UHGV virus genome: UHGV-0179541
From: a virus
Length of the DNA: 40,933 nucleotides
Strand: one strand, 5' to 3'
How positions within the stretch are numbered: position 1 is the stretch's first letter; each line of letters opens with the position of its first letter. The position numbers and the translations under genes were made by a program. Below the pieces are notes generated by a model. The model did no database searches. It had not been told where the DNA came from and was given only the letters and a program-made list of their open reading frames with translations. Positions 37,391-40,933 of the stretch are shown here, piece by piece.

Positions 37391-38350
37391 ATGGAAAGCT
37401 ATACTTTTGAATTGAAAGGAAATGTATTTGGCTTTTTTCAACGCAATGGTGAGGATTGTTTTTTATACATTAACACTGGTTTATTCCCTAAAGTAACCTA
37501 CTACCAATGGAGTCATTGGCAACGAGGAAAGGATAACTATAATGAAACATATCCTGATGCAATAAAAACAGATGAAATAGCAAAGGCGATTGGTTATTTT
37601 TCTTGGAATCAATGCTTTGATCGTTGTCCATACCAACCTATAGTTATCAGTTTATCTAAAAAAACAGAAGCAGGAATATTCTACCCTAGAATGAATAGAG
37701 GAGAACCAAAACTATATAACCAACAAATAGCGGAGGCACGAATCCTTGATGAAGTAAGGTCTTTTAATAATATATGTGATTCATTAAATGAATTATTTAA
37801 CTATATAGATCCTGATACTGGTAATTTGAGTTGTTTTGGTAATAAAATCAGAGAAATATTAATTATTGCATGTACTGAGGTTGAATACTTACTTCACAAT
37901 TTTCTTACAGATAATGGTTACACTGTTAACAACAATAGATTTAGTACTAACGATTATGTTAAATCTCTTGGTTTGCTGAAATTAGATGGGTATTCTACGA
38001 GGCTCGTTTACTATCCATATTTGCAAGAGTGGTGCCCATTTAGTGGTTGGGATGAATCTAAACCAACTACTAGTTTGACTTGGTATGACGCATATAATGC
38101 AGTTAAGCATAATCGCGGAACAAACAAGCAAAAGGCATCTCTTAACGCTGTAATAAATGCAGTAGCTGCCATTCATATTTTACTCGTAGCTCAATATGGG
38201 AGTGAGATATTTAATAGCCCGATGCACTCTAATTTCTCAAGCATTTTTAATACAACGAAATATCCTTCTTTCTTAGCAAATGATCTTCAGTGCCCAACAA
38301 TGAATCATGATCAAATCCTATGGGATAAAAAGTCATATTTATTTTCATAA
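37391..38350 (+). CDS. Hypothetical cargo protein, 319 aa, Trp/Tyr/Cys-rich, AT-rich (candidate single-gene defence or Abi protein)
   Basis: Strong ribosome-binding site (AAAGGAAACAAT ATG); AT-rich by eye; between int and the att site; no family recognised. Confidence 0.55.
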   Translation: MESYTFELKGNVFGFFQRNGEDCFLYINTGLFPKVTYYQWSHWQRGKDNYNETYPDAIKTDEIAKAIGYFSWNQCFDRCPYQPIVISLSKKTEAGIFYPRMNRGEPKLYNQQIAEARILDEVRSFNNICDSLNELFNYIDPDTGNLSCFGNKIREILIIACTEVEYLLHNFLTDNGYTVNNNRFSTNDYVKSLGLLKLDGYSTRLVYYPYLQEWCPFSGWDESKPTTSLTWYDAYNAVKHNRGTNKQKASLNAVINAVAAIHILLVAQYGSEIFNSPMHSNFSSIFNTTKYPSFLANDLQCPTMNHDQILWDKKSYLFS

Positions 38351-38472
38351 AAAATTGAAAACACCTTAGCCCGCTTCTGGCACGGAGTGGATAGAAAGCA
38401 AGGCATAAGTAAGTTATTAATTTAAGTTCTTCAAGAAAGTGCCCACTCTATATATTTGATGTCTTAACAGAT

Positions 38473-38510
38473 TAATATGTAGGTGTCTTTATAGCGACAC
38501 CTACATATTA
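38473..38510. terminator. Long perfect hairpin (15-bp stem TAATATGTAGGTGTC, 8-nt loop) between convergent cargo genes
   Basis: Read directly; T run follows on the plus strand. Confidence 0.6.
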
Positions 38511-38513
38511 ATT

Positions 38514-39533
38514 TCAATTATTTTTTTTATCAATTATATGACCACTGTTAGTGCCATAATACTTACCAGAAGCAACACCTTGCTTATAAAAATCATTCAA
38601 TACTTTTATTAGCAATCGTGCATCTGATGCATCTTTTATTACTAGCCTACCATTTTTTTCCTCTAACTTAGCACCTTCGAATATATTTAACGTTTCTTGA
38701 TATTTTATTATTATGTCAGGACTTAAATTTTCGTGGTTCTTTTTTTGAGCTATGCTCGCAATAGTTCGCTGAAGTGTTTTATTAGTTAAAATAACCTCTT
38801 CCAGAATTTTTATATTATCTATAATAGAAGCATCAGAAATAACCTTTAACACACTTCTTGCATTTTCCACAAATTCTTTTTCGATCCCGATAATTTGTTC
38901 AAACCCCAATTTCGATACAATATAAATCTTGTTATTTTTAAAGATAAAATCTATTTTTTTGTCAAAACTCACTGTCTGCATCGGAACGACTTTCATTGTA
39001 GCACTATTAACATCAAAGATAGCCTGCATTTTTTGAAAGGTATTCAATGGAGTATCTGTTGCCACCTTAGATTTTGTTAGCTTCCTATAAATGGTAAAAC
39101 CATCATCTTGTGTAGATATTTTTAAACAAAAAGCCAATATATCAGACTTAACTTCCTCTAGACTCTTTAATATATTTATTCCTGAGCCTTTATTTATTTT
39201 TTCTAATACTTTCCTGAATTCAAGGTCTTCAATATTTGCATAACCATAAATAGCGTCAGTCCCATCATCAGAAATCACTGAGTAGTCATGATACTCTAAT
39301 TCGTTGTTGCCTACCATTTTGTTTAATGTATCCAATGACCCAGTTTTAAAAAAATCCACCATTTTTTTGTCAAGACTCACCTTATAGATATCAAATATAA
39401 ATCTGTTTTCTGATGAGACTGAAGAATCTTTATTAATTTTCTTTGTTATCAAATAACATTTCATCGAAAATGTATTCGAGTGATAAAGATTCATTAGTGA
39501 ATTTAAAATACCTTTAATGTCTATTTCCGTCAT
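38514..39533 (-). CDS. Soluble 339-aa cargo protein, second gene of the two-gene operon (Kiwa KwaB-like by layout only)
   Basis: Start ATG overlaps the upstream stop (TAATG); Lys/Asn/Ile-rich, no TM segment; very AT-rich. Confidence 0.55.
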   Translation of the reverse strand: MTEIDIKGILNSLMNLYHSNTFSMKCYLITKKINKDSSVSSENRFIFDIYKVSLDKKMVDFFKTGSLDTLNKMVGNNELEYHDYSVISDDGTDAIYGYANIEDLEFRKVLEKINKGSGINILKSLEEVKSDILAFCLKISTQDDGFTIYRKLTKSKVATDTPLNTFQKMQAIFDVNSATMKVVPMQTVSFDKKIDFIFKNNKIYIVSKLGFEQIIGIEKEFVENARSVLKVISDASIIDNIKILEEVILTNKTLQRTIASIAQKKNHENLSPDIIIKYQETLNIFEGAKLEEKNGRLVIKDASDARLLIKVLNDFYKQGVASGKYYGTNSGHIIDKKNN

Positions 39534-40153
39534 TATTCTAATTCCTGATATTTAGCATAGAAGAGTTTGTAACCAATCTTTTGAATTTTGATACTGTCAT
39601 CTTCGTCCAAATATTTATTCGAACAAATTATCATTCCTTTCTTTTTTTGGCCGCCACTATTTATATACTCAATGCTGTAAAGTGAGTACTTTATAGCTAA
39701 AGTTGGATTTATAAGAATCATTGATGAGTTAGAATAAATAAGAAATGTAACCAGTAGCAGAATAGCTAAAGAAAATACACTCATGGGGTCAGAAAGATCT
39801 TGAAAAAGAAATGGCAGAAGATATGTAAAAAGATAACTTATAGATTCACTGTTTTTATTTTCTATGTCGACTATTTTTACAAAATCCCCATCATTATCAA
39901 TGCGTCTTTCCATATTTGATAATAAGAATATTAAACCAACAATACCAAAAACGACAAGAAGAAATATAATCGTAACCGCACCAAAATTTTCAATGTATAA
40001 TATTAATGCCTTCTTGTTCACCCCCCCCCAGTTGAGGTAATCTTTTTTCTTGTATAGTTGATTTACGGTCATAATTAAAAACAAAGGCATGTAAGACACC
40101 AAAAATAGTGTCAACCTTGCTCCTATTTTTAACTCTTCTTTTCGTGATGACAT
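39533..40153 (-). CDS. Four-helix membrane protein, first gene of the two-gene operon (Kiwa KwaA-like by layout only)
   Basis: Hydrophobic helices at roughly aa 20-37, 63-86, 111-125 and 131-148 of the track ORF; probable ATG start at 40153 after GAGG; contains the G9 tract. Confidence 0.55.
   Translation of the reverse strand: MSSRKEELKIGARLTLFLVSYMPLFLIMTVNQLYKKKDYLNWGGVNKKALILYIENFGAVTIIFLLVVFGIVGLIFLLSNMERRIDNDGDFVKIVDIENKNSESISYLFTYLLPFLFQDLSDPMSVFSLAILLLVTFLIYSNSSMILINPTLAIKYSLYSIEYINSGGQKKKGMIICSNKYLDEDDSIKIQKIGYKLFYAKYQELE
40021..40029. repeat. Homopolymer tract, 9 C on plus strand (G9 in the membrane-protein coding strand)
   Basis: Read directly; encodes WGGV. Confidence 0.9.
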
Positions 40154-40438
40154 AGTTCCAAAACCTCGAATCAACGCTTTCTTAGGTACTGATAACTGTA
40201 CCTAGTTTAACCTATAATATCTATGCAACATATTGATATATTGGTTAAAATTCCTTCTTTGATATCCCCTTACTTTCCCATTGATCAGTATGAAAAAACG
40301 TGAGCAATGTCCGTTATTGGCACTGAACGGACCTAAATATTAACGAGCATCCACCTGAAATGATCATAAAAAACTGAGGTATGCCTAATTGGAACTAGGT
40401 AATAGGGCTACCCTCTGAACATCCAAACTACTAGGGGG

Positions 40439-40471
40439 TTTTGATAACTTGTTTTGATAAAATTTTGATAA
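40439..40471. repeat. Three direct repeats of TTTTGATAA near the att site; candidate integrase arm-type sites
   Basis: Copies at 40439, 40452 and 40463; the same TTTTGATAACC motif recurs at 1471..1481 near the other end. Confidence 0.4.
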
Positions 40472-40494
40472 CCGTTAGCAGCCTAACAAAAAAC

Positions 40495-40517
40495 AACGGG
40501 AGCGTTACGCTCCCGTT
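40495..40517 (-). terminator. Rho-independent terminator of icd (AACGGGAGCG-TTAC-GCTCCCGTT)
   Basis: Hairpin immediately after the icd stop, followed by a T run on the minus strand. Confidence 0.75.
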
Positions 40518-40540
40518 AATAAATTTAACAAACAACGGCA

Positions 40541-40933
40541 TTACATGTTTTTGATGATTGCGTCGCCAAACTCGCTACATTTCAGCAGTTTAGCACCTTC
40601 CATCAGACGTTCAAAATCGTAAGTTACGGTCTTGGCGTTGATCGCGCCTTCCATACCTTTAACAATTAAATCAGCCGCTTCGGTCCAACCCATGTGGCGT
40701 AACATCATCTCAGCGGAGAGAATAATAGAGCCAGGGTTTACTTTGTCCTGACCGGCGTATTTCGGCGCAGTACCGTGGGTGGCTTCAAACAGGGCGCATT
40801 CGTCACCGATGTTTGCTCCAGGGGCGATACCGATACCGCCAACCTGCGCTGCCAGAGCGTCAGAAATGTAGTCACCGTTCAGGTTCATACAGGCGATAAC
40901 ATCATATTCAGCCGGACGCAGCAGGATCTGTTG
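40541..40933 (-). CDS. icd: Isocitrate dehydrogenase, 3' portion (gene continues beyond the window)
   Basis: C-terminal sequence [38 protein letters not shown]; ORF open to the window edge. Confidence 0.9.

What the first reader, a model, noticed from the sequence alone, without database searches (positions are those of the whole stretch)
40021..40029. G9 homopolymer tract inside the membrane gene: possible phase-variable switch
A run of nine G on the coding strand lies near codon 50 of the membrane protein, encoding WGGV. Tracts of this length are prone to slipped-strand mispairing. A one-base change would truncate the protein after the first helix and, through coupling, probably silence the downstream gene. 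This would give reversible ON/OFF control of a potentially costly system.
Basis: seen in the sequence. Interest (0 to 1): 0.65.

Follow-up and report, generated by a model that had tools for sequence, protein, structure and literature searches.

The report
Hypermutable poly-G tract in Kiwa kwaA
A run of nine G's inside the membrane-sensor gene (kwaA) of a prophage-borne Kiwa anti-phage system gains and loses bases among natural E. coli isolates, switching the gene between intact and truncated forms as in known phase-variable defence genes, but rapid reversible switching within one clone has not been shown.

Summary
Window 40021-40029 is C9 on the + strand, which is G9 on the coding strand of a 206-aa membrane protein. 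It encodes W-G-G-V at codons 42-45 (49-52 from the alternative TTG start).

- **The genes.** The gene is kwaA and the overlapping downstream gene is kwaB, together the Kiwa defence system. They lie at the icd end of an e14-like prophage.
- **Tract variation.** Across 29 independent copies the tract reads G8TG, G9TG, G10TG, G10, G11, G12 or G7AG2. Every kwaA truncation found maps to the tract.
- **Speed relative to flanks.** One 3.17-kb haplotype with no other differences carries G8, G9 and G10. A second, apart from one private SNP in two copies, does the same.
- **A longer allele.** A T>G change fuses the run into G11. That allele is mostly out of frame (about 110 of 155 contigs). In the out-of-frame copies read here, two of its three haplotypes also carry kwaB lesions.
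- **Not a family trait.** Eleven other lineages encode W-G-G with mixed Gly codons. Only Shewanella profunda has an independent, frameshifted G9 at the same motif.

Verdict: this is a real hypermutable ON/OFF mutational switch. It resembles the pglX G-tract of Streptomyces Pgl. Within-clone reversibility, phenotype and selection are untested.

The parts
40021..40029 (-). G9 homopolymer on the kwaA coding strand (W-G-G-V codons). It is the site of +/-1 and +/-2 length changes in natural isolates.
   Evidence: for the sequence. for G8, G9 and G10 with TG in related loci.
40019..40020 (-). The T-G that follows the run and interrupts it (part of the GTG Val codon). A T>G change at 40020 fuses the run into G11, encoding W-G-G-G. 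GTG 40019-40021 is also the start codon that gene callers use for the 162-aa product of frameshifted alleles.
39533..40153 (-). kwaA, 206 aa from the ATG (an alternative TTG start lies at 40174). It is the Kiwa membrane protein, and hydropathy shows three hydrophobic segments at about residues 10-30, 48-83 and 120-149. The W-G-G motif at residues 42-44 lies between the first two segments, which corresponds to ECL1 of the four-TM topology in the published structure.
   Evidence: PADLOC PDLC00212 at 2.3e-95. PF28043 is precomputed for the identical protein. Hydropathy. Topology from PMC11785009.
38514..39533 (-). kwaB, 339 aa with the DUF4868/KwaB domain. Its ATG overlaps the kwaA TAA stop by one base (TAATG). 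An AGGA lies 9 nt upstream of the ATG.
   Evidence: PADLOC PDLC00223 at 1.3e-121. Pfam PF16162 at 55.3 bits against a cut-off of 26.3. Junction sequence.
40175..40540 (-). Intergenic region between the icd stop and kwaA. It contains the icd terminator hairpin (40494-40518) and presumably the Kiwa promoter. No promoter was identified with confidence.
   Evidence: Promoter-like hits were no more frequent than in shuffles.
40541..40933 (-). 3' end of icd (isocitrate dehydrogenase). It marks the chromosomal junction of the e14-like prophage that carries Kiwa.
   Evidence: ORF. (RefSeq annotation of identical loci: icd, intE, xisE, ymfK).
38469..38514 (+). 19-bp inverted repeat between the convergent kwaB and orf319. 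It is probably a bidirectional terminator.

Best explanation
The G9 run is a real hypermutable homopolymer in kwaA, the membrane-sensor gene of a prophage-encoded Kiwa (KwaA-KwaB) defence system. Slipped-strand mispairing during replication adds or removes one G, occasionally two. G9-TG, or G11 in the T>G derivative, gives full-length KwaA. Any length not equal to these modulo 3 stops translation within 0-13 codons of the tract, after TM1. KwaA builds the membrane supercomplex that activates KwaB, so out-of-frame cells should lack Kiwa defence against phages and conjugating plasmids. Expansions and contractions both occur at lengths 8-12, so an OFF allele can return to ON by the same mechanism. 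In effect the tract is a heritable, bidirectional ON/OFF mutational switch, like a contingency locus.

Shown here: the tract, the truncations, recurrent independent length changes in nature in both directions, and a higher OFF fraction for the longer tract.

Inferred: slippage as the mechanism, loss of defence when kwaA is out of frame, any polar or coupling effect on kwaB, and actual OFF-to-ON reversion.

Open: whether switching is fast enough and selected enough to count as true phase variation.
For: (1) Identity. KwaA matches PADLOC at 2.3e-95 and KwaB at 1.3e-121. Pfam KwaB scores above its gathering threshold. The genes lie in operon order with a TAATG overlap.

(2) DNA of 29 independent copies: G8TG in 4, G9TG in 6, G10TG in 7, G10 in 6, G11 in 1, G12 in 4, and G7AG2 in 1. 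Every truncated kwaA examined is broken at the tract.

(3) Haplotype A is identical over 3.17 kb and carries G8, G9 and G10. Haplotype B does the same apart from one private SNP in two copies. One icd background holds all three lengths (L016, L005, L006). That makes at least 8 independent indels at an 11-nt block, against about 10 variable substitution sites in the other roughly 3,160 bp.

(4) Lengths are reproducible across unrelated projects and platforms. G10 appears in AP027477.1 and three other assemblies. G12 appears in CP042969.1 and an ENA metagenome scaffold. G8 and G10 with TG appear in 11 different SRA or GenBank samples. This argues against artefact.

(5) Protein census by contig. 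The G9TG allele gives about 235 full-length against 21 of the 162-aa product. The G11 allele gives about 45 full-length against about 110 truncated. N-terminal stubs for +1 (28 contigs), -1 (10 and 5) and -2 (6) are all present.

(6) In a less biased sample taken through the neighbouring orf319, 18 of 24 loci were scored ON and 5 of 24 tract-OFF. The 18 counts places collapsed by similar neighbouring proteins, whose tracts were not read.

(7) Precedent. A G8 tract in pglX switches Streptomyces Pgl at 1e-2 to 1e-4 (PMC4365076). KwaA is needed to build the KwaAB supercomplex, and interface mutants abolish defence (PMC11785009).
Against: - No read-level data were available, so within-culture heterogeneity and switching rate are unknown.
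- No OFF-to-ON transition was demonstrated phylogenetically. All observed states can be explained by one-way steps away from the in-frame length.
- The tract is not conserved. Eleven other W-G-G-encoding KwaA lineages, including the 79-83% identical ones, use mixed Gly codons with a longest G run of 4.
- GGG makes up 17% of the other Gly codons in the island, so a GGG-GGG pair can arise by chance.
- Two of the three haplotypes seen among out-of-frame G11-derived copies also carry kwaB nonsense or frameshift lesions, which means permanent loss.
- E. coli has efficient mismatch repair, so rates may be well below those of classical contingency loci (own knowledge).
- Contig counts are not phylogenetically independent.
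Confidence: 0.62

Rival explanations
1. The tract is a non-adaptive mutational hotspot. It arose by chance, through two synonymous changes to GGG at a conserved W-G-G motif, and simply makes this Kiwa allele prone to recurrent, effectively one-way pseudogenisation. The ON/OFF polymorphism would then be decay in progress, not a used or selected switch.
For: The tract is absent from all close and distant homologues except one. GGG codons are not rare enough to need selection (7 of 41 elsewhere). About 70% of G11-allele contigs are out of frame, and two of its three haplotypes seen among out-of-frame copies carry extra kwaB lesions. L014 has a G>A inside an out-of-frame tract. The locus is also lost by other routes, such as the insertion in L061 and the split kwaB in the Salmonella copy L052. 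The Shewanella profunda copy is also frameshifted.
Against: All 11 out-of-frame G8TG and G10TG loci keep an intact, unmutated kwaB and identical flanks. That fits very recent or reversible events. Both +1 and -1 steps occur at similar frequency, so reversion is mechanistically as likely as inactivation. The G9TG allele remains about 92% in frame despite recurrent slippage, which suggests purifying selection, reversion, or both.
Confidence: 0.3
2. The length differences are sequencing or assembly artefacts at a difficult homopolymer, and the real tract is always in frame.
For: L003 and L004 (CP104613, CP104598) also differ at three A/T homopolymers. One of these, the -1 in the 8-nt run at 38521-38528, is unique to them, so their G12 call is less trustworthy. 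L013 is an error-ridden assembly.
Against: The same non-reference lengths recur in independent projects and technologies and track haplotypes. G10 is shared by four assemblies that also share kwaB lesions by descent. G12 appears in a finished genome and in an unrelated metagenome scaffold. A/T runs of 7-8 nt in the same 3 kb show only 2 indel events against at least 8 at the G tract. The kwaB decay in out-of-frame lineages is expected only if kwaA really is inactive.
Confidence: 0.03
3. Out-of-frame alleles are not truly OFF. Transcriptional slippage, ribosomal frameshifting on the G run, or reinitiation at the GTG just after the run (in G8TG the new TGA stop overlaps it as GTGA) could restore enough KwaA, or a split KwaA, for the system to keep working. 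The tract would then tune the level or form of KwaA instead of switching it.
For: In G8TG alleles the stop and the GTG overlap as G-TG-A. Gene callers find a 162-aa ORF covering TM2 to the C-terminus. A homopolymer of 8 or more G's is formally a slippery site (own knowledge).
Against: There are no expression data. TM1 takes part in both KwaA tetramer interfaces in the solved structure (PMC11785009), so a protein lacking TM1 is unlikely to assemble. The kwaB decay in out-of-frame G11-derived lineages implies loss of function. Efficient transcriptional slippage is documented mainly for A/T runs (own knowledge).
Confidence: 0.05

Closest known systems
G-tract phase variation of pglX in the Streptomyces coelicolor Pgl (BREX-type) phage defence system (Sumby & Smith 2003, as cited in PMC4365076)
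   Same: A run of G's (8 in pglX) lies inside the coding sequence of an essential component of a non-CRISPR phage defence system whose restriction does not depend on DNA cleavage. Expansion or contraction by one base inactivates defence. Contractions and expansions were both observed.
   Different: The proteins and mechanisms are unrelated (methyltransferase against membrane sensor). Pgl switching rates of 1e-2 to 1e-4 and the phenotype were measured, whereas here only natural polymorphism is shown. The Streptomyces genome is GC-rich, so G runs are common there. Here the run sits in a 31%-GC island.
Phase-variable restriction-modification systems (phasevarions): simple-sequence repeats in Type III mod and Type I hsd genes of Haemophilus, Neisseria, Helicobacter and Campylobacter
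   Same: Repeat slippage inside a defence gene gives stochastic, heritable ON/OFF states, interpreted as bet-hedging between phage protection and DNA uptake or cost (own knowledge; PMC6789123 and PMC12707154 were listed but not read).
   Different: Those organisms carry many such loci and several lack full MutSLH repair. Their tracts are conserved across strains and species. E. coli has very few SSR contingency loci, and this tract is confined to one Kiwa allele.
Canonical Kiwa (E. coli O55:H7 RM12579, ECOR8/12/49; PMC11785009; PDB 9mrg, 9mrr, 9mrx, 9o0i)
   Same: It is a two-gene kwaA-kwaB operon, often on prophages or islands. The published KwaA has four TM helices plus a cytoplasmic beta-barrel, and the window KwaA shows a compatible hydropathy profile. 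KwaB carries DUF4868.
   Different: This is a divergent subtype. The solved KwaA aligns only over the C-terminal half at E 1e-9, and KwaB has no PDB sequence hit at E 1e-3. The NCBIfam equivalog models score below their cut-offs (86 against 100, and 50 against 200). No homopolymer switch has been reported for any Kiwa; no paper in the searched library links KwaA with phase variation.
Contingency loci in coliphages T2 and T4 (agt, rIIA homopolymers; bioRxiv 10.1101/2025.10.21.683753)
   Same: Short mononucleotide runs in phage-borne genes replicated in E. coli give frameshift mutants at about 1e-3 to 1e-4. These revert 1e3 to 1e4 times faster than point mutants and are used in the defence and counter-defence contest.
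   Different: Those are A runs in lytic phage genomes copied by phage polymerases. Here a G run lies in a prophage copied by the host replisome under host mismatch repair, and it affects a defence gene, not a counter-defence gene.

Membership tests
Kiwa defence system | KwaA: small multi-pass membrane protein matching KwaA profiles | tested here: met
   PADLOC PDLC00212 at 2.3e-95 over the full length. PF28043 KwaA is precomputed on the identical protein. Hydropathy shows three hydrophobic segments at about residues 10-30, 48-83 and 120-149. The NCBIfam equivalog NF041622 scores 86 bits, below its cut-off of 100, so this is a divergent subtype.
Kiwa defence system | KwaB: DUF4868-domain protein | tested here: met
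   PADLOC PDLC00223 at 1.3e-121. Pfam PF16162 scores 55.3 bits against a cut-off of 26.3. NCBIfam NF041623 scores 50 bits, below its cut-off of 200.
Kiwa defence system | kwaA immediately upstream of kwaB on the same strand, as one operon | tested here: met
   kwaA 39533-40153(-) and kwaB 38514-39533(-) share a TAATG stop/start overlap.
Kiwa defence system | Protects against phage infection or conjugation | not testable with these tools
   This has been shown only for other Kiwa operons (PMC11785009). This subtype was found in 4 of 5,426 complete E. coli genomes, none of them a strain tested in that paper.
Simple-sequence-repeat contingency (phase-variable) locus | Mononucleotide tract of about 7 or more inside the ORF, where a length change shifts the frame | tested here: met
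   G9 lies at codons 42-45. A -1 change gives 44 aa and a +1 change gives 54 aa.
Simple-sequence-repeat contingency (phase-variable) locus | Tract length differs among otherwise near-identical strains, in both directions and recurrently | tested here: met
   G8, G9 and G10 occur on each of two 3.17-kb haplotypes, one with no other differences and one with a private SNP in two copies, and in one icd background. G10, G11 and G12 occur on the derivative allele. This implies at least 8 independent events.
Simple-sequence-repeat contingency (phase-variable) locus | High-frequency, reversible switching within a clonal population | not testable with these tools
   This needs read-level or culture data. 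No OFF-to-ON event could be inferred from the loci available.
Simple-sequence-repeat contingency (phase-variable) locus | Tract maintained by selection (conserved in orthologues, or enriched beyond codon-usage expectation) | tested here: not met
   Eleven other W-G-G-encoding KwaA lineages have a longest G run of 4, including the homologues at 79-83% identity. GGG is 7 of 41 other Gly codons. The one other case, Shewanella profunda with G9, is frameshifted.
Simple-sequence-repeat contingency (phase-variable) locus | ON and OFF genotypes give different phenotypes | not tested
   This is inferred from the requirement for KwaA-KwaB assembly (PMC11785009). The kwaB decay in out-of-frame lineages is consistent with loss of function.

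The most novel reading that the evidence does not exclude
The tract is a true contingency locus carried by a temperate phage. It gives E. coli lysogens stochastic, reversible ON/OFF expression of Kiwa, trading protection from superinfecting phages against openness to plasmids or the membrane cost of the system. The conserved W-G-G (TGG GGN GGN) motif of KwaA acts as a recurrent seed for such switches, with independent origins in E. coli/Citrobacter and in Shewanella. This would be the first repeat-mediated phase variation described for Kiwa, and a rare SSR contingency locus in mismatch-repair-proficient Enterobacteriaceae.
Probability: 0.3. Interest if true: 0.7.

Novelty: new member of a known kind. 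Interest (0 to 1): 0.55.

Why it matters
Defence-system surveys such as PADLOC and DefenseFinder score presence or absence of genes. Here roughly a fifth to a third of the copies of one Kiwa allele are silently out of frame at a single homopolymer, so presence does not mean activity. If switching is fast and reversible, it is a natural example of bet-hedging in a non-restriction defence system in E. coli. It would bear on phage-therapy escape, plasmid uptake and the cost of immunity, and simple reporter and amplicon assays could test it directly. If switching is not reversible in practice, the locus still shows how a synonymous codon choice at a conserved Gly-Gly motif shortens the evolutionary life of a defence gene.

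Tried and rejected
- A gapped-pattern scan for the tract flanks found nothing in genome contigs or viral contigs and only two loci in metagenome contigs. The allele is rare outside E. coli isolate data.
- E. coli genomes megablast gave only 4 of 5,426 genomes, too few for a census. I therefore used exact-protein look-ups of the truncated products and of designed N-terminal stubs.
The in-frame G11 DNA was reached through the neighbouring orf319 instead.
- L013 is a heavily error-laden assembly (30 gaps in 3 kb) and was discarded.
- L003 and L004 carry extra A/T-homopolymer indels, so their G12 call was down-weighted.
- The promoter scan of the kwaA upstream region was uninformative, with hits no more frequent than in shuffles.
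- In-frame +/-3 variants (G6TG, G12TG, G8, G14) are absent from the collection.
- I considered whether truncated 163-164-aa products in the Klebsiella/Enterobacter homologue cluster meant the same tract there. The one N-terminal frameshift stub available from a sister Klebsiella/Kluyvera cluster (P0174) back-translates to TGG GGA GGT and appears to be shifted at an upstream A run, and Kluyvera DNA reads TGG GGA GGT. So the tract is probably not shared, though DNA of the truncated copies themselves was not fetched.
- Structure prediction was not run because the topology question is answered by the published KwaA structure.

Full report
**1. The observation**

Window 40021-40029 is C9 on the + strand, so G9 on the - strand. 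It lies in the - strand ORF 39533..40174. The coding strand reads AAC TGG GGG GGG GTG AAC, which is N-W-G-G-V-N.

Counted from the ATG at 40153, which RefSeq annotates as a 206-aa protein, they are codons 42-45.

It is the only G or C run longer than 6 in the window. Window-wide shuffles expect 0.18 such runs, and 14 of 100 shuffles give at least one. In the 31%-GC island that carries it, a mononucleotide model expects about 5e-4.

The run is followed by T-G, so one T>G substitution would create an in-frame G11.

**2. What the genes are**

- The membrane protein matches KwaA (PADLOC PDLC00212, 2.3e-95).
- The downstream 339-aa protein matches KwaB (PDLC00223, 1.3e-121; Pfam PF16162 at 55 bits against a cut-off of 26).
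- The kwaA TAA stop overlaps the kwaB ATG as TAATG. An AGGA lies 9 nt upstream of that ATG.
- The pair sits between the 3' end of icd and a convergent 319-aa ORF of unknown function, followed by intE/xisE of an e14-like prophage.

This is a divergent Kiwa subtype. The NCBIfam equivalog models score below their cut-offs. The solved KwaA (9mrg) aligns only at E 1e-9, and KwaB has no PDB sequence match.

According to PMC11785009:
- KwaA has four TM helices and forms tetramers that bind KwaB dimers in a membrane supercomplex.
- KwaA senses membrane disturbance caused by phage or pilus.
- KwaB then binds incoming DNA.
- Interface mutants lose defence.
- The system also reduces conjugation and is not abortive.

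The W-G-G motif lies between the first two hydrophobic segments, which corresponds to extracellular loop 1 of that topology.

**3.

*Complete genomes.* Only 4 of 5,426 complete E. coli genomes carry this locus, and even these differ. One has T-G9-T-G, like the window. Three have T-G12, which is frame +1, and there PGAP annotates only a 126-aa C-terminal fragment.

*Protein census.* Exact-protein look-ups in the large assembly collection widened the sample.

| Allele | Full-length contigs | Truncated contigs |
|---|---|---|
| W-G-G-V (G9TG) | about 235 | 21 (162-aa product starting at the GTG after the run) |
| W-G-G-G (G11) | about 45 | about 110 (126-aa product or another-frame product) |

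N-terminal stubs predicted for the +1, -1 and -2 states are present in 28, 10+5 and 6 contigs. In-frame +/-3 variants are absent.

*DNA.* The 29 independent copies read as follows.

| Tract | Copies |
|---|---|
| G8TG | 4 |
| G9TG | 6 |
| G10TG | 7 |
| G10 | 6 |
| G11 | 1 (plus 4 similar contigs) |
| G12 | 4 |
| G7AG2 | 1 |

Every kwaA truncation maps to the tract.

**4. Independence and authenticity of the changes**

An alignment of 3.17 kb around the tract shows two W-G-G-V haplotypes that differ by one SNP. Each carries G8, G9 and G10. The W-G-G-G allele occurs on three haplotypes with G12, G10, and both G10 and G12.

The chromosomal icd flank defines 8 host backgrounds. One background holds G8TG, G9TG and G10TG. 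Another holds G9TG and G12.

This requires at least 8 independent indels in an 11-nt block. The remaining roughly 3,160 bp shows about 10 variable substitution sites, and the A/T runs of 7 nt or more show 2 indel events (two further indels lie in shorter contexts).

Non-reference lengths recur in unrelated projects and platforms and follow haplotypes. G10 is shared by four assemblies that also share kwaB lesions. G12 appears in a finished genome and in a metagenome scaffold. Assembly artefact is therefore very unlikely, apart from the doubtful L003 and L004 assemblies, which have other homopolymer indels.

**5. Switch or decay?**

*Evidence for a switch.*
- Both expansions and contractions occur, so reversion is mechanistically as likely as inactivation.
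- All 11 out-of-frame G8TG and G10TG loci keep an intact kwaB and identical flanks.
- The G9TG allele stays about 92% in frame.

*Evidence for decay.*
- About 70% of G11-allele contigs are out of frame.
- Among its out-of-frame copies, two of the three haplotypes carry additional kwaB lesions: a nonsense mutation at 38747 and a -1 in the 7-nt run at 38954-38960.
- One copy has a G>A inside an out-of-frame tract (L014).
- The tract is not a family trait. W-G-G is conserved in the subfamily, but 11 other lineages encode it with mixed Gly codons. These include the homologues at 79-83% identity, which read TGG GGT GGA GTG, TGG GGA GGA ATG and TGG GGA GGT ATG.
- GGG makes up 17% of the other Gly codons in the island, so chance origin is plausible.

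One independent case exists. Shewanella profunda DSM 15900 has a G9 at the same motif in a 60%-identical kwaA, and it is out of frame.

**6. Mechanism, with shown and inferred steps separated**

Shown:
- The tract exists as described.
- Out-of-frame lengths truncate KwaA after TM1.
- Length changes recur in both directions in nature.
- The longer, uninterrupted tract is out of frame more often.

Inferred:
- Replication slippage is the cause.
- Defence is lost when kwaA is out of frame, from the published need for KwaA-KwaB assembly.
- Some reduction of kwaB expression follows, either from loss of coupling or from polarity across the roughly 460 nt (+1 alleles) to 490 nt (-1 alleles) left untranslated. 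kwaB has its own AGGA, so silencing need not be complete.
- OFF alleles can revert.

Unknown: the rate, the cost and the selective value.

**7. Comparison with known systems**

The closest analogue is the G8 tract in pglX of Streptomyces Pgl/BREX, which switches defence at 1e-2 to 1e-4 (PMC4365076). Phase-variable restriction-modification genes are the broader class. Contingency homopolymers have recently been described in coliphages T2 and T4.

No paper in the searched library connects Kiwa with phase variation.

I file this as a new member of a known kind: a homopolymer-controlled defence gene. It is new for Kiwa and unusual for E. coli. Membership in the strict class of phase-variable loci is not established, because reversibility and rate are untested and tract conservation was tested and not met.

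**8. Verdict**

- Interest is moderate at 0.55. The natural ON/OFF polymorphism is real, directly testable and relevant to how defence-system content is read from genomes. However, the allele is rare, and adaptive, reversible switching remains unproven.

Noticed in passing
window 37391-38350 (+): A 319-aa ORF lies convergent with kwaB, between Kiwa and intE. It has no Pfam, PADLOC or NCBIfam hit and matches only PHROG 19461 (unknown function, 1e-30). It is present in every copy of the island seen, and the exact protein is listed in 899 index blocks. It is a candidate accessory or defence gene.
   Followed up: partly
L046 1620-1635 (Shewanella profunda DSM 15900, NZ_JAKILG010000002.1): An independent G9 run lies at the same W-G-G motif of a 60%-identical kwaA, and it is out of frame (G7 or G10 would be in frame). 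This is either convergent tract formation or a second case of decay.
   Followed up: partly
window 40019-40022 region, in G8TG alleles (L016, L018, L020, L024): After a -1 slip the new TGA stop overlaps the GTG as G-TG-A. This stop/start overlap could allow reinitiation, giving a 44-aa TM1 peptide plus a 162-aa KwaA lacking TM1. This is speculative.
   Followed up: no
window 38747; 38954-38960; 38521-38528 (kwaB): In G11-derived out-of-frame lineages kwaB carries its own lesions. These are a C>T nonsense mutation giving a 262-aa product (L009, L014), a -1 in a 7-nt A/T run giving a 193-aa product (L003, L004, L007, L012, L015), and a -1 in the 8-nt run (L003, L004 only, possibly a sequencing error).
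   Followed up: partly
L014 (GCA_002100045.1), tract position: A G>A substitution inside the run (GGGGGGGAGG) interrupts the homopolymer while it is out of frame. This would fix the OFF state.
   Followed up: no
L061 4784-6960 (GCA_033843505.1): Only the 3' 660 nt of the Kiwa region remains here. The rest is replaced by an insertion encoding a 542-aa RVT_1 (group II intron-like reverse transcriptase) protein and a 246-aa ORF.
   Followed up: partly
L052 3121-4141 (Salmonella enterica GCA_004156995.1): A 79%-identical Kiwa without any G tract has kwaB split into 62 and 282 aa. Kiwa loci therefore also decay by routes unrelated to the tract.
   Followed up: no
L001 550-2521; L003/L058-L060 about 150-1312: In several strains an IS3-family element sits beside or inside xis-int and most of the prophage is gone. 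In L058-L060 (L058 is the same record as L003) a GmrSD_C-domain gene lies beyond it. This leaves Kiwa and orf319 as a remnant island next to icd.
   Followed up: no
window 38469-38514 (+): A 19-bp inverted repeat lies exactly between the convergent kwaB and orf319 stops. It is probably a bidirectional terminator.
   Followed up: no
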